Shown in pieces: positions 25,997-35,994 of a stretch of 64,000 bases of DNA. Within the stretch, counting starts at the first letter, position 1. Each line of letters starts with the position of its first letter. This DNA comes from Coraliomargarita sp. Lineage in GTDB: Bacteria > Verrucomicrobiota > Verrucomicrobiia > Opitutales > Coraliomargaritaceae. The position numbers and the translations under genes were made by a program. Under the pieces are notes generated by a model. The model was given only the letters and a program-made list of their open reading frames with translations, searched no databases and was not told the origin of the DNA. The stretch is taken from positions 192,001 through 256,000 of the forward strand of contig OZ244160.1 of assembly GCA_965216325.1 (NCBI GenBank), given 5' to 3'.

Positions 25997-26054
25997 GGGC
26001 GCGACTTGACGCGCCCGCATCGGTTCGACGGGCGTGCGAAACGCTCGCCCCTAC
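25993..26054. repeat. GTAGGGGCG-type REP pair
   Basis: GTAGGGGCG...CGCCCCTAC; same family at 41134-41209. Confidence 0.75.
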
Positions 26055-26422
26055 ACAGGCTTCACCACTGTCAGTAGCATCTTGAAGTTTTCAGGTGCGT
26101 CGACGGCGTGCGGAATGTTGGCGGGTAGGACGATTGTCTGGCCTGCTGGAACCGTATGCGCTTGGCCATCTACAGTGAGGCTGCCTGTGCCATCCAGCAC
26201 TTGGACCATCGCGTCACCGGTTGAGCTGTGGGTGCTCAGGCCTTCACCTTTGGCAAATGCGAATACAGTCAGATTCAGATACTTGTTCTGCGCGAGTGTG
26301 CGGCTGATCACTTGGCCGTCCTGATACTCGACCAGAGCGCAGAGCTCCAAGGCTTCGGCCTTGGGCATGTTTTTGATCATCGGCTTTGCCGCTGGTGTGA
26401 GTGTTAAGTTTTGAAGGTCCAT
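26051..26422 (-). CDS. Cupin domain protein
   Basis: LTVFAFAKGEGLSTHS, LPANIPHAV, FKMLL. Confidence 0.88.
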   Translation of the reverse strand: MDLQNLTLTPAAKPMIKNMPKAEALELCALVEYQDGQVISRTLAQNKYLNLTVFAFAKGEGLSTHSSTGDAMVQVLDGTGSLTVDGQAHTVPAGQTIVLPANIPHAVDAPENFKMLLTVVKPV

Positions 26423-26564
26423 GATGAACTTAAAGGTAAAGGCTACGAAAGGAGCGAGCGCTGCAGGCTCATTGAGCTACCAATCTCAATCAGCCATCCT
26501 CATAGAACACACTAACAGGAGCCTACTAGCAGCTGCTGTCCTTTCGTAGCTAAATGATGGAGCT

Positions 26565-26816
26565 CTAGTGATTGCAGCGTTTGCTGGTATCAAACACAAA
26601 GGCTTCGGGGGTGCCGGCAAATTTACCTTTGGCCCAGAGAGTCTCGATCAGCTGCGCGGCTGTCATACCACCGCCGGAGCAGATGTAGAAGCGGGCGTCG
26701 GTGCCGAACTTTTCGTTGATCGTAGCTTCAAGACTCGCGTCGCTATATTGGATGCCTGAAGCAATCATCATTTCGAGGACTTCGTGGCCGTGGTGTTCGA
26801 TATTTTTTACGTTCAT
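26565..26816 (-). CDS. YecH-family putative metal-binding protein
   Basis: HGHEVLEMM, FGTDARFYICS, KGKF, C-terminal CNH. Confidence 0.85.
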   Translation of the reverse strand: MNVKNIEHHGHEVLEMMIASGIQYSDASLEATINEKFGTDARFYICSGGGMTAAQLIETLWAKGKFAGTPEAFVFDTSKRCNH

Positions 26817-26818
26817 AA

Positions 26819-32789: not shown

Positions 32790-34047
32790 GTCAGACACCG
32801 TTTCCGCAGAAGTGCACCACAGCCATTGGGCTGATTACCCGAAATTCATCTGGCGCATGCTGGTGATGGCGACGGAGGGTAATTGGCTCTTCTATGCGTG
32901 GATGATTTTTCTAACTGCCGTTTCTCTCGTGGGGCTCAATGCCTGGGCGGTGCAAGTCTCCGAAGGTATGGGCATTACCAATATGACGGACCATGTTTCG
33001 TGGGGGCTGTATATTGCGAACTTTACGTTCATGGTTGGCCTCGCTGCCGGTGGCGTGATGATGGTGATTCCCGCCTATCTGTATCATGATGAAGATATGC
33101 ATGACGTGGTAATCATCGGTGAGCTATTGGCGATCGCGGCGATCTTCATGTGTATCGGCTTTGTGATGGTGGACCTCGGTCGACCGGATCGCTTCTGGCA
33201 TATGATTCCCGGGATTGGTAAATTCCACTTTCCGATATCGATGCTGACTTGGGATGTCATCGTGTTGAACGGCTATTTGTTGATCAATCTGCACATCTGC
33301 GGGTACTTGCTGTATAACCGTTATCGAGGCGTCGCTCCAAATCCGAAATGGTATATTCCGTTTGTGTTCCTTTCCATCGCATGGGCGATCTCGATTCACA
33401 CGGTCACAGCATTCCTCTATCAGGGCTTGGGCGGGCGACCGTTTTGGAATACTGCGCTTCTGGCGCCACGCTTTTTGACTTCGGCCTTTGTGTCGGGGCC
33501 GGCGTTTATCATTCTCGCTCTGGAGGTGATCCGCTACCTCAGCAGGTATAAGGTGGGCGATGGAGCGATCAAGATTCTCGTCAATATCATGCGAGTGACG
33601 ATTTTGATCAACTTGGTGATGCTGGTTTCGGAAGTCTTTACTGAATTCTATACGGGAAGTTCGCATGCCGCTTCGGCCAAGTATCTTTACTTTGGTCTGC
33701 ATGGTTATAACGCGCTCGTGCCTTGGATCTGGACGTCCGTTGCGCTGACGATCGTTGCGACCTTATTGCTCTTATGTCCCAAGGTCACTCAGAAACCGGT
33801 GATGCTGATCACGGCCTGTGTGTTGGCCTTTGTCGGGATCTGGATCGAAAAAGGGATGGGCTTAATCATTCCCGGGTTCATTCCGAATACGCTGCACGAA
33901 ATTGTCGAGTATTTGCCCAATGGAGTGGAGTGGCGGATCTCTGCCGGGATCTGGGCTGCGGGCTTGATGATTTATACGCTGGCGATCCGTATTGCCATGC
34001 CGATCTTTTCCGGTGAAGTTTCCTTGGAAAAGGATACCAATGCTTAA
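32782..34047 (+). CDS. NrfD/PsrC-family quinol-interacting membrane protein (DsrP-like)
   Basis: SWGLYIANF, DLGRPDRF, AISIHTVTAFL, LAPRFL, WIEKG; about 10 TMs. Confidence 0.9.
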   Translation: MNKSDTVSAEVHHSHWADYPKFIWRMLVMATEGNWLFYAWMIFLTAVSLVGLNAWAVQVSEGMGITNMTDHVSWGLYIANFTFMVGLAAGGVMMVIPAYLYHDEDMHDVVIIGELLAIAAIFMCIGFVMVDLGRPDRFWHMIPGIGKFHFPISMLTWDVIVLNGYLLINLHICGYLLYNRYRGVAPNPKWYIPFVFLSIAWAISIHTVTAFLYQGLGGRPFWNTALLAPRFLTSAFVSGPAFIILALEVIRYLSRYKVGDGAIKILVNIMRVTILINLVMLVSEVFTEFYTGSSHAASAKYLYFGLHGYNALVPWIWTSVALTIVATLLLLCPKVTQKPVMLITACVLAFVGIWIEKGMGLIIPGFIPNTLHEIVEYLPNGVEWRISAGIWAAGLMIYTLAIRIAMPIFSGEVSLEKDTNA

Positions 34048-34486
34048 ATACGGAAAGACTGCACAAAATGCGATATCCGCGATGAGCTTGCTCGCGGAAG
34101 TCTACGATGGTGGAGAAACGAAGCTGAGTTCGCTGGAGATTGCCGAGCGACGACAGTTACCAAAACCGCTGGTTGCGAAGTTGCTCGTGGTGTTGTCAAA
34201 AGCAGGCTTAGTGGATGGTACGCGTGGGCCGAAGGGCGGTTATTGGTTGGCCAAGAATCCGGGAGAGATTGTCCTGTTGGACATTGTTGTGTTGTTTGAG
34301 AAAATGGGTGAGCGGACGATGTGTCCCTTTGGTCCGGACTGGTGCGGCAATGGGGAGCCGTGCCCGCTGCATGATCAGCTGTTGGAGCTCGATGATCAAT
34401 TGATGCGCTTTCTCGAGCGAACCAGTCTTGCGGTTTTTGAGGAGGGGGCTTTGACGCGTGCTGCGGATGGCGCCTGTTATATCTGA
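34040..34486 (+). CDS. Rrf2-family Fe-S transcriptional regulator
   Basis: EIAE..., GLVDGTRGPKGGYWLAK, CPFGPDWCGNGEPCPLHD; ATG overlaps the NrfD stop region. Confidence 0.9.
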   Translation: MLKYGKTAQNAISAMSLLAEVYDGGETKLSSLEIAERRQLPKPLVAKLLVVLSKAGLVDGTRGPKGGYWLAKNPGEIVLLDIVVLFEKMGERTMCPFGPDWCGNGEPCPLHDQLLELDDQLMRFLERTSLAVFEEGALTRAADGACYI

Positions 34487-34731
34487 TGTTTGGGATTGGC
34501 TTTGCAGTTCTTAATTATGAGTCCTGCTTGCTGCAGCGAGCAGTTCCAATGCTGATTGGTTGGGCGATGTCTTTGGGGCTGACTTGGGTTGCCATTGGTT
34601 GGTTCAATGAAATTCACCGCAATCATTAGTTTAGTTCATGTCTTCATTAAGCTCATTAATCTAATTGGCATGAAAACTGTTAAAAACTTTGTGTGCAAAA
34701 TAAAGCGCATCCTTAGCAAACAAAACTGAAT

Positions 34732-35994
34732 ATGAATACACATACTACAAAATCACTCTTCGCGATGCTGGCAGTTGCTGGTGGCGCGTCTTACGTAACC
34801 GCGGATCCGGTTGAAAGCTTCCTTGATGAGCAAACTGCCAAGCTTGAGGAAACCGTTCCGGGTAAGTTCAGCATCAACGCTCGCACACGTTATGAGATCT
34901 TCGATCTCGATACTCCGTCTGGAACACTCAAAGATGGAACTGAGGCTGATCGCGATGGTTTCTCGACTCGCGTTCGCTACGGCTACACCACTCCAAATTT
35001 CAACGGCTTCACTGCGATGGCAGAAGGTGAAACGTTGACTCGCCTTGGTGGTGATCACGATGACATTCACCCGCTTGATGACGCGGGTGATGGCACCGAT
35101 ATCAACCAGCTATGGGTGCAATACGCGAACGAAGACTATGGTAAGGCAAAAGTCGGTCGTCAGATCTATGCTCTCGATGATCACCGCTTCATCGGTCACG
35201 TAGGATGGCGCCAAAATATTCAGACCTTTGATGCTGCGACTGCAGACTACACCGGGATTGAGAATCTTTCTGTAAAGGGCTTCTTCTCGGATGCGGTCAA
35301 TCGTGTGAACGGTGACTACTTCAAGATGGATACCTATGGTGTAAACATCTCATATAAGTTCTATGATAATTTCACGCTGACTGGTTTCTACTACGAGATG
35401 GACGACGCAGATACTCCGGCATTTGAGAATGAAACATTGGGCCTGCGCGCGGTTGGTTCGTTCAATCTTGGTGAGCAAAAGTTCAAGTATGCGGGTAGCA
35501 TTGCGAAGCAGGACTTCGATGAAAATGATGCAGGTGAAGACGACGCCACTTACCTTGCAGGTGACCTGTCTACTGTCGTTGCGGGCATCACGCTGGGTGC
35601 TGGTTTTGAAATCATGGAATCTGGTTTCCGCACTCCAGTTGCAACGGTCCATAAGTTTAATGGTTTCGCTGACGTTTACACTCCGCTGAATGGTTTCGAT
35701 AATGGCGTTGAAGACTTCTATGGTTACATCGGCTACACCATTCCAGTGGGTAACGGTATCCCAGTGAAGCTAATTTATCACACCTTCGACGCCGAGTCCG
35801 GTGCTGCCTCTGGTCAAGATGGTGGTGACGAAATCGACCTCGTAGCCTCCTACAAGATCAACAAGTATCTGAATCTCATCGCTAAGTATGGTAACTATAG
35901 CGAGGATGGCGGTATTGGCCTTGCGACGAATGACGATCCTGTCGGTGGACTTGATAAGGAGATGTTCACTTTTGAAGTGAACTTCATTTACTAA
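34732..35994 (+). CDS. Outer-membrane beta-barrel, alginate-export (AlgE-like) family
   Basis: Signal peptide, RTRYE, KVGRQ..LDDHRFIGHVGWRQNIQTFDA, TPVATVHKFNGFAD, aromatic C-terminal residue. Confidence 0.82.
   Translation: MNTHTTKSLFAMLAVAGGASYVTADPVESFLDEQTAKLEETVPGKFSINARTRYEIFDLDTPSGTLKDGTEADRDGFSTRVRYGYTTPNFNGFTAMAEGETLTRLGGDHDDIHPLDDAGDGTDINQLWVQYANEDYGKAKVGRQIYALDDHRFIGHVGWRQNIQTFDAATADYTGIENLSVKGFFSDAVNRVNGDYFKMDTYGVNISYKFYDNFTLTGFYYEMDDADTPAFENETLGLRAVGSFNLGEQKFKYAGSIAKQDFDENDAGEDDATYLAGDLSTVVAGITLGAGFEIMESGFRTPVATVHKFNGFADVYTPLNGFDNGVEDFYGYIGYTIPVGNGIPVKLIYHTFDAESGAASGQDGGDEIDLVASYKINKYLNLIAKYGNYSEDGGIGLATNDDPVGGLDKEMFTFEVNFIY

What the first reader, a model, noticed from the sequence alone, without database searches (positions are those of the whole stretch)
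26051..35994. Non-canonical nitrate-respiration island: Nap without NapC/NapH, paired with a divergent cytochrome c/DsrOP-like quinol module
Seen: the minus-strand run is napD-napA-napB-like-ferredoxin-hypothetical-YecH-cupin. The plus-strand run, under 100 bp away, is tetraheme cytochrome c-Tat 4Fe-4S protein-NrfD-family protein-Rrf2, followed by an AlgE-like porin. No NapC or NapH is present in the cluster. Established: Nap needs a quinol dehydrogenase (NapC, NapGH or CymA), and NrfD/PsrC plus NrfC modules exchange electrons with menaquinone. Inference: the NrfD/4Fe-4S/cytochrome trio is the dedicated quinol oxidase for NapAB and the porin admits nitrate. menD and menB in this window support menaquinone use.
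Basis: partly seen in the sequence, partly recalled or inferred. Interest (0 to 1): 0.72.

Follow-up and report, generated by a model that had tools for sequence, protein, structure and literature searches.

The report
Nap nitrate reductase with DsrOP-like quinol module
This bacterium's periplasmic nitrate reductase genes lack both textbook membrane electron donors and instead sit back to back with a four-haem cytochrome, an iron-sulfur protein and a DsrP-like membrane protein, a pairing kept across several phyla that probably represents an untested third way of feeding electrons to this enzyme.

Summary
The minus strand holds napD-like, napA, a membrane-anchored tandem (four-haem) NapB, a NapF/G-like ferredoxin, an unknown 100-aa protein, YecH and a cupin. 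About 90 bp away, the plus strand holds an anchored four-haem cytochrome c, a Tat four-cluster FeS protein, a 10-helix NrfD/DsrP-like protein, an Rrf2 regulator and an Alginate_exp porin.

The complete 3.06-Mb genome has no NapH, NapG, NarG, cytochrome b, DsrA or DsrK. Its only NapC/NirT-family gene is NrfH, beside NrfA 2.2 Mb away.

The pairing is conserved. NapA lies beside the trio in 26 of 26 related loci with enough flank, in 8 of 8 NapA-bearing genomes among 401 of the phylum, and in 28 of 57 NapA-bearing Planctomycetota. Three of three trio-less loci examined carry Rieske/cytochrome b instead. A 26-bp palindrome, unique in the genome and invariant in six relatives, sits in the shared promoter region.

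Best reading (about 0.7, from gene neighbourhood and genome content, not experiment): menaquinol to DsrP-like subunit to FeS to cytochrome to NapB-NapB to NapA.

This module type is in print with no assigned function (Geobacter Cbc4, cable-bacteria DsrOhPh-tetrahaem). I found no paper linking it to Nap. Earlier notes of this scan reported the same pairing in at least eight other genomes.

The parts
26051..26422 (-). Cupin_2 protein (123 aa), last gene of the minus-strand run
   Evidence: PF07883, 44.9 bits. Relatives were found by tblastn only in close Opitutales loci and a few Phycisphaerae loci.
26565..26816 (-). YecH-family metal-binding protein (DUF2492, 83 aa)
   Evidence: PF10678, 99.4 bits; TIGR03853, 92.4 bits against a cut-off of 65.7.
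26819..27121 (-). Conserved 100-aa protein of no known family, co-conserved with this Nap type
   Evidence: No Pfam or NCBIfam match. A relative is present in 35 of 46 NapA-bearing loci. The model is confident (pLDDT 85.8) but has no clear fold match: Foldseek best E 0.06, VIA best Z 6.8. The nearest Atlas clusters are 'hypothetical protein' from Myxococcota and Planctomycetota.
27127..27516 (-). Small 4Fe-4S ferredoxin with an RRDFF Tat-like motif; NapF/NapG-like by weak score only
   Evidence: Fer4 families. NapG 26.9 bits and NapF 27.2 bits, both far under their cut-offs. The motif is read from the translation. A relative is present in 26 of 46 NapA-bearing loci.
27589..28392 (-). Membrane-anchored four-haem cytochrome, a tandem duplication of the NapB dihaem domain
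   Evidence: PF03892 NapB, 38.9 bits. One hydrophobic helix at residues 12-30. Four CXXCH in 45 of 45 homologues. The consensus shows the GAPPxxPH...CxxCH...H...CxQCH unit twice. A profile search of PDB found NapB in 3 of its 4 hits.
28396..30828 (-). NapA, the catalytic Mo-bisMGD subunit, with a Tat signal
   Evidence: NF010055 872 bits (cut-off 904) and TIGR01706 835 bits (cut-off 930.55). TAT_signal, Fe4S4, Molybdopterin and Molydop_binding domains. Best solved relatives are NapA 3ml1 (716 bits) and 2nya (703 bits). The segment ARLCMASA aligns to ARHCMASA of 3ml1.
30831..31115 (-). NapD-like chaperone (94 aa), ending 2 bp before the napA start codon
   Evidence: No Pfam match. Model pLDDT 84.3 with a beta-alpha-beta-beta-alpha-beta order. 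E. coli NapD 2jsx ranks 4 (E 8.9e-4, TM 0.64/0.63) among other ferredoxin-fold domains.
31139..31188 (.). Inverted repeat in the 90-bp divergent promoter region; the conserved 26-bp core is a candidate operator for the co-encoded Rrf2
   Evidence: 23-nt arms, 96% complementary. The core at 31151-31176 is invariant in 6 of 6 Opitutales loci aligned. It occurs once in the 3.06-Mb genome, even when 6 mismatches are allowed.
31206..31853 (+). Membrane-anchored four-haem cytochrome c (215 aa; the conserved start is probably the ATG at 31212)
   Evidence: Paired_CXXCH_1 and Cytochrome_C7. One helix at residues 9-27. Four CXXCH in 60 of 60 homologues. All eight haem Cys and four His are invariant in 35 sequences.
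31860..32789 (+). Tat-exported four-cluster FeS protein, NrfC/DsrO-like (309 aa)
   Evidence: Fer4_11 and related families. DsrO 194.3 bits (cut-off 200), QrcC 163 bits, NrfC 134.6 bits. Best solved relative is PsrB/NrfC 2vpw_B, E 3e-38. The SRRTVLKG motif and four Cys groups are read from the translation.
32782..34047 (+). NrfD-family, DsrP-like integral membrane subunit (421 aa, about 10 helices): the inferred menaquinol site
   Evidence: PF03916, 128 bits. NF045798 DsrP, 431 bits (cut-off 350). About 10 hydrophobic segments. Invariant D131, S153 and K357 align to the quinone-site and gate positions of ActC 6f0k_C that PMC8076601 names.
33992..34486 (+). Rrf2-family regulator overlapping the end of the NrfD gene; carries C-x6-C-x5-C-x2-H
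   Evidence: PF02082, 88 bits; TIGR00738, 87 bits. The Cys/His spacing is read from the translation. A relative is present in 16 of 46 NapA-bearing loci.
34732..35994 (+). Alginate_exp-family outer-membrane porin (420 aa)
   Evidence: PF13372, 52.2 bits. Relatives lie in 21 of 80 related loci and in L087 and L088.
36036..36073 (+). Terminator-like hairpin (12 pairs, 8 G-C) followed by T8, after the porin gene
   Evidence: It is the strongest terminator-like site in 25900-36400. The overall count did not exceed shuffles (14 found against 11.9 expected), so this rests on position and strength only.

Best explanation
The two divergent operons encode one respiratory device: a periplasmic nitrate reductase fed from the menaquinol pool by a DsrOP-like, Cbc4-type module instead of NapC or NapGH.

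Inferred electron path: menaquinol is oxidised at the 10-helix NrfD/DsrP-like subunit. Electrons then pass through the four [4Fe-4S] clusters of the Tat-exported FeS protein, through the membrane-anchored four-haem cytochrome c, and through the membrane-anchored tandem NapB (four haems). They end at the [4Fe-4S] cluster and Mo-bisMGD site of NapA, which reduces nitrate to nitrite. NrfHA, encoded elsewhere in the genome, can then reduce nitrite to ammonium.

The NapD-like protein, the small ferredoxin, YecH and possibly the unknown 100-aa protein would serve NapA maturation. The in-operon Rrf2 regulator probably binds the unique 26-bp palindrome between the operons and controls both. The Alginate_exp porin may admit nitrate or nitrite through the outer membrane.

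Shown here: the gene content, the cofactor motifs, the absence of the alternative donors, and the conservation of the pairing. Inferred: every electron-transfer step, the regulator-operator pairing and the porin's substrate.
For: 1. Parts and motifs are present.

2. Alternative donors were not found in a genome that is 99.98% complete and in one contig.
- No NapH, NapG, NarG or cytochrome b.
- The one NapC/NirT-family gene is an NrfH equivalog next to NrfA.
- The only other NrfD-family gene lies beside ActD, so it belongs to alternative complex III.

3. The pairing is conserved.
- Of 54 loci whose NrfD protein is at least 62% identical, 46 hold NapA, including 26 of 26 with enough flank. The 8 without NapA have under 3 kb on the relevant side. 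The layout is divergent in 31 and co-directional in 15.
- In a 401-genome sample of the phylum, NapA occurs in 8. In all 8 the NrfD relative lies within about 3 kb.
- A same-family genome that is 100% complete has Nap plus the trio and no NapC-family gene at all.
- NapH over its cut-off was found in 0 of 7, 0 of 5 and 0 of 57 genomes.

4. Modules swap. Three of 3 trio-less Planctomycetota NapA loci examined carry Rieske plus cytochrome b in the same operon. This fits the idea that the adjacent quinol oxidase is Nap's input.

5. The quinone-site residues are kept. D131, S153 and K357 are invariant in 40 sequences and align to the functional positions of ActC.

6. NapA-NrfD pairwise identities correlate (r 0.70) about as well as those between subunits of the trio (0.64-0.76).

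7. The shared control region holds a conserved palindrome that is unique in the genome.

8. Contigs from four RNA libraries of one sample, from a relative 95-99% alike, cover both operons. None of the 32 listed pieces spans 31096-31231.
Against: - No experiment exists, and the complex predictor was unavailable, so no physical contact is shown.
- Neighbourhood is correlative.
- Relatives of the trio also sit with an HAO-like multihaem cytochrome in 25 of 80 loci. Six of 14 genomes of the phylum that carry a trio relative have no NapA. The module is therefore not Nap-specific.
- In Planctomycetota only 28 of 57 NapA-bearing genomes have the relative within 5 kb.
- NrfH and alternative complex III exist in this genome and could in principle donate electrons.
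- NapA scores slightly under both curated NapA cut-offs.
- The RNA data are contigs from one sample and cannot exclude DNA carry-over or show induction.
- 24,000 bases of the genome are withheld and could not be searched.
Confidence: 0.72

Rival explanations
1. Nap takes its electrons from another quinol oxidase of the cell. Candidates are NrfH acting like CymA, or alternative complex III through a soluble cytochrome. The neighbouring trio would serve a different periplasmic acceptor or donor.
For: NrfH and an ActD-linked NrfD/FeS locus both exist in the genome. Campylobacter Nap is reported to be fed by a quinol:cytochrome c reductase (abstract of PMC6195509, seen in the listing). Relatives of the trio pair with HAO-like enzymes in 25 of 80 loci.
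Against: - NapA lies beside the trio in 26 of 26 adequately flanked loci and in 8 of 8 NapA-bearing genomes of the phylum sample.
- A close relative with Nap plus the trio has no NapC-family gene. Three of 5 genomes from other phyla have none either.
- No other periplasmic reductase gene lies in this cluster.
Confidence: 0.12
2. The anchored four-haem NapB-NapB protein is itself the quinol dehydrogenase, a functional analogue of NapC. The trio would be unrelated or redundant.
For: It has the same cofactor count and single anchor helix as NapC: one helix and four CXXCH in 45 of 45 homologues.
Against: - Both halves are NapB-type domains. NapB makes up 3 of the 4 PDB matches and no NapC/NirT-family chain is among them.
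- About 70 mostly polar residues separate the anchor from the first haem domain. NapC and NrfH hold haem 1 next to the membrane (recalled).
- This reading does not explain the strict co-conservation with the trio.
Confidence: 0.05
3. The trio works in the opposite direction, as Qrc does. It would take electrons from a periplasmic donor into the menaquinone pool, with Nap merely co-regulated.
For: The FeS and membrane subunits also score on the Qrc models: QrcC 163 bits, QrcD 59.8 bits. The direction of electron flow in DsrJOP-type modules is described as unsettled (passages of PMC10926707 and PMC13047784).
Against: - No periplasmic dehydrogenase or hydrogenase gene lies in the cluster.
- Nap would still have no recognisable donor in this genome.
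- The Qrc scores are far under the cut-offs of 400 and 570.
Confidence: 0.04

Closest known systems
Classical Nap systems (NapAB with NapC and/or NapGH, e.g. napFDAGHBC, napEDABC, napAGHBFLD, napCMADGH)
   Same: NapA is a close relative of heterodimeric NapA: 716 bits to 3ml1 and 703 bits to 2nya. NapB-type haem domains, a NapD-fold chaperone upstream of napA and a small ferredoxin are present.
   Different: There is no NapC, NapG or NapH in the cluster, and none of them was found elsewhere in the genome apart from NrfH. NapB is duplicated in tandem and membrane-anchored. A three-gene cytochrome/FeS/NrfD module stands in the place of the quinol dehydrogenase.
Geobacter sulfurreducens Cbc4 complex (CbcS/CbcT/CbcU, GSU0068-0070)
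   Same: It has the same three-part architecture: an anchored tetrahaem cytochrome with a linker, a protein with four [4Fe-4S] clusters, and an integral membrane subunit. It is proposed to be a menaquinol:cytochrome c oxidoreductase whose partner is unknown (abstract and passages of preprint 10.1101/2025.04.14.648717).
   Different: In Geobacter it is discussed for extracellular electron transfer, with no link to Nap. Sequence kinship of this trio to CbcSTU was not tested here, because no Geobacter sequence could be fetched.
'TMH1-DsrOhPh-tetrahaem' locus of cable bacteria, some Desulfobulbales and Gamma-/Betaproteobacteria ('candidate alternative complex III')
   Same: DsrO and DsrP homologues lie with a His/His tetrahaem cytochrome, away from dsrMK, and also occur in genomes with no sulphur metabolism. 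The authors state the function as unknown and suggest electron transfer from quinol to the periplasm (passages of PMC13047784; PMC10926707).
   Different: Those papers do not connect the locus to nap. 'napA' occurs once in each, in another context. There is no TMH1 gene here. Whether the two belong to one clade was not tested.
E. coli NrfABCD (NrfD-NrfC-NrfB feeding NrfA)
   Same: The logic is the same: an NrfD-type quinol subunit, a four-cluster FeS protein, then a multihaem cytochrome that hands electrons to a periplasmic N-oxide reductase. Weak matches: NrfC 134.6 bits, NrfB 21 bits.
   Different: All scores are far under the Nrf cut-offs. The membrane subunit has about 10 helices and scores as DsrP, not NrfD. 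The acceptor is a molybdoenzyme reached through NapB.
DsrMKJOP complex of sulphate reducers and sulphur oxidisers
   Same: The membrane subunit passes NCBI's DsrP equivalog cut-off (431 against 350). The FeS subunit nearly passes DsrO (194 against 200). Asp, Ser and Lys occupy the three functional positions, as in the DsrP1 branch.
   Different: The genome has no DsrK, and no DsrA over its cut-off. The cytochrome has four haems and gave no DsrJ match. Public records nevertheless label relatives 'DsrMKJOP subunit DsrP'.
nap-Rieske/cytochrome b-Hao clusters (Caldithrix abyssi type)
   Same: A quinol-oxidising module other than NapC/NapGH is encoded inside a nap cluster and is proposed to feed Nap (passages of PMC5317091). 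The same layout was seen here in L086-L088.
   Different: That module is of the Rieske/cytochrome b type. This genome has no cytochrome b.

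Membership tests
Periplasmic nitrate reductase NapA | Score over the curated equivalog cut-off | tested here: not met
   NF010055 872.2 bits against 904; TIGR01706 835 bits against 930.55. The shortfall is narrow, and the next family (Fdh-alpha) scores only 460 bits.
Periplasmic nitrate reductase NapA | Tat signal, N-terminal [4Fe-4S] Cys motif, Mo-ligand Cys context, and closest solved relatives being NapA | tested here: met
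   TAT_signal and Molybdop_Fe4S4 domains. 3ml1 716 bits, 2nya 703 bits, 1ogy 658 bits. ARLCMASA aligns with ARHCMASA of 3ml1. That this Cys is the Mo ligand is recalled, not from a call.
NapB dihaem cytochrome | NapB domain with two CXXCH | tested here: met
   PF03892 38.9 bits against a cut-off of 25.1. The profile found NapB in 3 of 4 PDB hits. The domain is present twice in tandem, with four CXXCH in 45 of 45 homologues.
NapD chaperone | Pfam NapD match | tested here: not met
   No family at E up to 0.1.
NapD chaperone | Ferredoxin-type fold of about 90 aa, encoded directly upstream of napA | tested here: met
   Model pLDDT 84.3. 2jsx E 8.9e-4, TM 0.64; 2pq4 E 3.9e-3. The fold is shared with many RAM/ACT-like domains, so it is not specific.
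NapC/NirT quinol dehydrogenase serving Nap | A NapC/NirT-family gene in the nap cluster or elsewhere that is not NrfH | tested here: not met
   There is one PF03264 match in the genome, at C1:2447068. It is an NrfH equivalog (175.9 bits against 134.2), scores 28 bits on napC_nirT (cut-off 310.6), and lies next to NrfA.
NapGH quinol dehydrogenase | NapH and NapG genes | tested here: not met
   No match to TIGR02163 or TIGR00397 at E up to 0.001 in the genome. The small ferredoxin scores 26.9 bits on NapG (cut-off 269).
DsrMKJOP complex | DsrP and DsrO over the curated cut-offs | tested here: inconclusive
   DsrP is met (431.1 against 350). DsrO is narrowly not met (194.3 against 200).
DsrMKJOP complex | DsrM/DsrK, a trihaem DsrJ and DsrAB in the genome | tested here: not met
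   No DsrK match. The best DsrA hit is 40.4 bits against a cut-off of 392.85. The trio's cytochrome has four CXXCH and no DsrJ match at E up to 0.01. DsrM was not searched.
Cbc4 / DsrOhPh-tetrahaem type module | Anchored tetrahaem cytochrome c, Tat protein with four [4Fe-4S] clusters, and a 10-helix NrfD-like subunit, with no catalytic subunit in the operon | tested here: met
   The architecture is as described in passages of 10.1101/2025.04.14.648717 and PMC13047784.
Cbc4 / DsrOhPh-tetrahaem type module | Membership of one phylogenetic clade with CbcU or cable-bacteria DsrPh | not testable with these tools
NrfD-like quinone-interacting subunit | Conserved acid/His in the second core helix, conserved Ser at the quinone pocket, and Arg/Lys gate in the eighth core helix (as listed in PMC8076601) | tested here: met
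   D131, S153 and K357 are invariant in 40 sequences. They align to H139, S164 and the WFER arginine of ActC 6f0k_C. The residue list comes from passages of the review. I mapped the alignment positions by hand.
Alternative complex III | ActB with a molybdopterin-like domain, plus ActD/E/F subunits | tested here: not met
   The trio's FeS protein is 309 aa with no molybdopterin domain, and no ActD is nearby. The genome's ActD-linked locus is elsewhere, at C1:722482-726510.
Rrf2 regulators | Rrf2 domain over the cut-off | tested here: met
   PF02082 88 bits against 30; TIGR00738 87.1 bits against 73.3. NsrR (24.8 bits) and IscR (50.7 bits) are far under their equivalog cut-offs.

The most novel reading that the evidence does not exclude
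The five redox subunits (DsrP-like membrane protein, FeS protein, anchored tetrahaem cytochrome, anchored NapB-NapB and NapA) form one stable membrane-bound supercomplex. Its DsrP-like subunit, with an invariant Asp/Ser quinol site and a Lys gate, would move protons. Periplasmic nitrate reduction would then be directly energy-conserving in Verrucomicrobiota, Planctomycetota, Myxococcota and others. This would also give the first physiological job to the orphan Cbc4 / DsrOhPh-tetrahaem module family.
Probability: 0.2. Interest if true: 0.8.

Novelty: new variant of a known kind. Interest (0 to 1): 0.6.

Why it matters
Textbook Nap takes electrons from NapC or NapGH. Genome surveys that look only for those genes would score these organisms as having an incomplete or 'orphan' Nap.

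If the reading holds, a third input module is the usual one in several large and environmentally abundant phyla. In the Planctomycetota examined, a Rieske/cytochrome b type is also used.

The reading would also assign a function to a module that 2025-2026 papers describe as having an unknown role (Cbc4, DsrOhPh-tetrahaem). It would correct a recurring database label: public records name the membrane subunit 'sulfate reduction ... DsrP', 'polysulfide reductase NrfD' or 'HybB-like'.

Because NrfD-type subunits are proposed to translocate ions, it reopens the question of whether periplasmic nitrate reduction can conserve energy.

Tried and rejected
- **Complex prediction.** Prediction for the trio's cytochrome with NapB-NapB was not available, so no statement on binding is made.
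- **The 100-aa protein.** Foldseek against PDB (best E 0.06), VIA-align wide (best Z 6.8, within background) and the protein Atlas (only 'hypothetical protein' clusters, score 0.87) gave no function.
- **Promoter scan.** The count did not exceed shuffles (6 found against 6.6 expected), so no promoter is claimed.
- **FNR box.** The palindrome's half-sites are ATCAA...TTGAT in the wrong order and spacing, so an FNR box was rejected on reading the sequence. The FNR consensus itself is recalled.
- **RNA contigs.** No listed piece covers Rrf2 or the porin. With contigs from one sample this says nothing either way, and it cannot show induction.
- **Genomic island.** G+C of 0.49-0.57 across the region is like the rest of the window.
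- **Literature.** Nine full-text searches and passages of eleven papers gave no paper that links this module to Nap.
  - The NrfD review PMC8076601 has no word starting with 'nap'.
  - The Nap review of Sparacino-Watkins et al. 2014 is not held.
  - Simon and Klotz 2013 (recalled) was not looked up here.
  - The last two reviews may bear on the novelty claim.
- **Closest printed near-case.** This is the NrfD/FeS/cytochrome locus beside napMADGH in Thermosulfurimonas (PMC5276818). That locus accompanies an Hao homologue, and NapGH is present there.
- **Tree with named references.** A tree with bona fide DsrP, CbcU and DsrPh was not built, for lack of their sequences.

Full report
**1. Observation**

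The window is C1:192001-256000 of a 3,064,510-base, single-contig genome rated 99.98% complete; 24,000 bases are withheld. The closest public relatives of its proteins are Opitutales/Puniceicoccaceae records of Verrucomicrobiota.

Minus strand:
- cupin (26051-26422)
- YecH/DUF2492 (26565-26816)
- a 100-aa ORF with no family (26819-27121)
- a small 4Fe-4S ferredoxin (27127-27516)
- a NapB-like cytochrome (27589-28392)
- NapA (28396-30828)
- a 94-aa ORF ending 2 bp before the napA start codon (30831-31115)

Plus strand, 90 bp away:
- a cytochrome c with four CXXCH (31206-31853)
- an FeS protein with a twin-arginine motif and four Cys groups (31860-32789)
- an NrfD-family protein (32782-34047)
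- Rrf2 (33992-34486, overlapping the NrfD gene end)
- an Alginate_exp porin (34732-35994)
- the strongest terminator-like hairpin of the region, 36036-36073

menD and menB pass their equivalog cut-offs at 52614-54362 and 54672-55757.

**2. The parts in more detail**

*NapA.* It scores 872 bits on NF010055 (cut-off 904) and 835 on TIGR01706 (cut-off 930.55), so it is a slightly divergent NapA. Its best solved relatives are the heterodimeric NapA enzymes 3ml1 (716 bits), 2nya (703) and 1ogy (658). The ARLCMASA segment aligns with ARHCMASA of 3ml1.

*NapB-like protein.* It has one N-terminal hydrophobic helix and four CXXCH. All 45 of 45 homologues recovered from related loci also have four. The 35-sequence consensus shows the unit GAPPxxPH...CxxCH...H...CxQCH twice. 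A profile search of PDB found NapB in 3 of its 4 hits, with both halves aligning to NapB. It is therefore a tandem, membrane-anchored NapB.

*The 94-aa ORF.* It has no Pfam match. It folds confidently (pLDDT 84.3) into a beta-alpha-beta-beta-alpha-beta domain. E. coli NapD 2jsx is among the top Foldseek hits (E 8.9e-4, TM 0.64).

*The 100-aa ORF.* It folds confidently (pLDDT 85.8) but matches nothing clearly. It accompanies NapA in 35 of 46 loci.

*The trio's cytochrome.* It has one anchor helix and four CXXCH, as do 60 of 60 homologues.

*The membrane subunit.* It has about ten hydrophobic segments. It passes NCBI's DsrP equivalog cut-off (431 against 350). The FeS protein just misses DsrO (194.3 against 200).

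I aligned a 40-sequence profile to Rhodothermus ActC (6f0k_C) and used the residue list in the NrfD-family review PMC8076601 (passages). The invariant D131, S153 and K357 fall on three functional positions: the quinol (de)protonation position (His139 in ActC, Asp in DsrP), the conserved quinone-pocket Ser (Ser164 in ActC), and the mid-membrane gate (Arg in most families, Lys in the DsrP1 branch). I mapped these positions by hand from the printed alignment.

**3. Is it a Dsr complex?**

No. The genome has no DsrK match. Its best DsrA hit is 40 bits against a cut-off of 393. The cytochrome has four haems and no DsrJ match.

Public records nonetheless label relatives 'sulfate reduction electron transfer complex DsrMKJOP subunit DsrP', 'polysulfide reductase NrfD' or 'HybB-like'. 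None of the names shown refers to Nap.

**4. What else could feed Nap in this genome?**

- The family search for NapH found nothing, and the search for NapG found nothing.
- The single NapC/NirT-family gene, 2.2 Mb away, is an NrfH equivalog (175.9 bits, cut-off 134.2; 28 bits on napC_nirT, cut-off 310.6). It sits directly upstream of NrfA.
- There is no NarG and no cytochrome b or Rieske relative.
- The only other NrfD-family gene lies beside ActD, so it belongs to alternative complex III.

The recognisable quinol-to-periplasm routes are therefore the trio, NrfH and ACIII.

**5. Conservation**

The best 80 loci were kept.
- Among the 54 loci with at least 62% identity, 46 hold NapA. All 26 with at least 7 kb and 6 kb of flank hold it. 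The 8 without it have under 3 kb on the relevant side.
- The layout is divergent in 31 and co-directional in 15.
- The records are labelled Verrucomicrobiota, Planctomycetota, Myxococcota, Methylomirabilota, Sumerlaeia and 'Proteobacteria' MAGs.

*Own phylum.* In an even sample of 401 genomes, NapA (E up to 1e-100) occurs in 8. In all 8 the membrane-subunit relative lies within about 3 kb.
- No NapC-family hit lies near NapA. One same-family genome that is 100% complete has no NapC-family hit at all.
- NapH over its cut-off was found in 0 of 7. One sub-threshold hit of 115.6 bits lies 6.5 kb from NapA in G370.
- Five genomes from other phyla gave NapH over the cut-off in 0 of 5 and a NapC-family gene in 2 of 5.

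*Results that limit the claim.*
- Of 14 genomes of the phylum with a relative at E up to 1e-60, 6 have no NapA.
- In a 301-genome Planctomycetota sample, 57 have NapA. Only 28 of those have the relative within 5 kb; 6 have it on another contig and 23 have none at E up to 1e-40.
- In that sample NapH over the cut-off was 0 of 57.
- NapC-family hits within 5 kb of NapA were three weak ones. One of them is the trio's own cytochrome.

*Trio-less loci.* I examined three trio-less loci. All three encode Rieske, cytochrome b, an HAO-like multihaem cytochrome and NapA in a row (Pfam for L086 and L087, tblastn for L088). This is the arrangement described for Caldithrix (passages of PMC5317091).

*HAO-linked relatives.* In 25 of the 80 loci, nearly all with identity under 62%, an HAO-like multihaem gene directly follows the NrfD gene. 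In L056 and L060 NapA follows further on.

The picture is modular. Either of two quinol oxidases is encoded next to either or both of two periplasmic N-oxide enzymes. This supports reading the adjacent module as the electron input. It also shows that the trio family is not exclusive to Nap.

*Co-variation.* Pairwise identities of NapA and the membrane subunit correlate (r 0.70 over 43 sequences). This is similar to the correlations within the trio (0.64-0.76). It is weak evidence, because relatedness alone produces correlation.

**6. Regulation and expression**

The 90-bp divergent region holds a 23-nt inverted repeat. Its 26-bp core is invariant in six Opitutales loci while the flanks vary. 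The core occurs once in the genome even when six mismatches are allowed.

The Rrf2 gene overlaps the NrfD gene end and carries C-x6-C-x5-C-x2-H. This resembles the cluster ligands of IscR-type Rrf2 proteins (recalled). Pairing this regulator with the palindrome is an inference.

Contigs from four RNA libraries of one sample, from a relative 95-99% alike, cover napD-napA-napB-ferredoxin and cytochrome-FeS-NrfD. None of the 32 listed pieces (of 49) spans 31096-31231. This fits two divergent transcripts. However, these are contigs of one study, and DNA carry-over is not excluded.

**7. The porin**

I built an HMM from 11 porin ORFs and searched the loci. It finds relatives at E up to 1e-10 in 21 of the 80 loci (8 of these were seeds), and in 2 of the 3 Rieske/cytochrome b Nap loci. 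This recurrence beside different input modules gives moderate support to a role in nitrate or nitrite uptake. The substrate is untested.

**8. Mechanism**

The most likely path is: menaquinol, then the DsrP-like subunit, then four [4Fe-4S] clusters, then the anchored tetrahaem cytochrome, then the anchored NapB-NapB, then NapA. NrfHA completes ammonification. I put this at about 0.7.

Rivals:
- Another donor, NrfH or ACIII (0.12).
- NapB-NapB as the quinol oxidase (0.05).
- Reverse operation as in Qrc (0.04).

**9. Comparison with what is known, and novelty**

The architecture matches two modules in print.
- Geobacter's Cbc4 complex (CbcS/T/U), a proposed menaquinol:cytochrome c oxidoreductase of unknown role (abstract and passages of preprint 10.1101/2025.04.14.648717).
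- The 'TMH1-DsrOhPh-tetrahaem' locus of cable bacteria and others. Its authors call its function unknown and note it in genomes without sulphur metabolism (passages of PMC13047784 and PMC10926707).

Neither work links the module to nap. Nine full-text searches found no paper that does. The NrfD-family review lists fifteen subunit types and has no word starting with 'nap'. Sparacino-Watkins et al. 2014 is not held in this library, and Simon and Klotz 2013 (recalled) was not looked up, so priority there cannot be excluded.

Earlier notes of this scan reported the same Nap-plus-trio pairing in at least eight other genomes. They supplied the Cbc4 and DsrOhPh leads, which I then read myself. One of those notes is marked 'part of it fell' on a later check, without saying which part.

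I rate this a new variant of a known kind. Every part belongs to a known family. The combination would give Nap a third class of quinol dehydrogenase and would give an orphan module a function. The case is well supported by comparative genomics and untested at the bench.

Noticed in passing
L042, L046, L048-L061, L063, L065-L068, L071-L073, L080 (e.g. L066:11311-12768): In 25 of 80 related loci, mostly Planctomycetota with under 62% NrfD identity, an HAO/hydrazine-dehydrogenase-like multihaem cytochrome of about 485 aa directly follows the cytochrome/FeS/NrfD trio. In L056 and L060 NapA follows as well. NCBI's DsrP model also passes for the NrfD of L066 (420.9 bits).
   Followed up: partly
L086:6958-12581, L087:7466-14475, L088:8251-14850: Planctomycetota NapA loci without the trio carry Rieske, cytochrome b, HAO-like and NapA genes in a row. 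Two of the three also carry an Alginate_exp porin next to the operon.
   Followed up: partly
window 32782-34047 and its public relatives: Public records name this protein family inconsistently: 'DsrMKJOP subunit DsrP', 'polysulfide reductase NrfD', 'HybB-like' and 'molybdoenzyme membrane anchor'. This includes organisms with no dsr genes. The NCBIfam DsrP equivalog cut-off does not separate Nap-linked or HAO-linked proteins from true DsrP.
   Followed up: partly
G234:C1:3326675-3327865, G288:C82:19507-20214, G282:C33:2799-3509, G114:C19:7754-8461: Four genomes of the same order without NapA hold relatives of the NrfD subunit (59-66% identical) in open frames of 582-620 aa. In three of them only the first 250 residues or so match. 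These may be fused or rearranged forms.
   Followed up: no
G475:C1:5702474-5702713; L066:8224-8991: Homologues of the trio's tetrahaem cytochrome give weak, sub-threshold matches to the NapC/NirT Pfam model (21-22 bits). This fits the preprint's statement that the CbcS haem core resembles NrfH/CymA.
   Followed up: no
window 4320-5654 (-): An intact-looking DDE transposase gene (DDE_Tnp_1_4, 498 bits) lies about 20 kb upstream of the nap cluster.
   Followed up: no
window 12262-14985 (-), 36592-37419 (+), 39376-40635 (+), 55609-56574 (+): Sizeable ORFs (907, 275, 419 and 321 aa) gave no Pfam match at E up to 1e-8. The last three also gave no NCBIfam match. The 321-aa ORF follows menB directly.
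   Followed up: no
G370:C1:2700981-2703188: A NapH-like ORF under the cut-off (115.6 bits against 213) and a second weak hit lie 6.5-8 kb from NapA in one genome that also has the trio. They may belong to another system such as nos.
   Followed up: no
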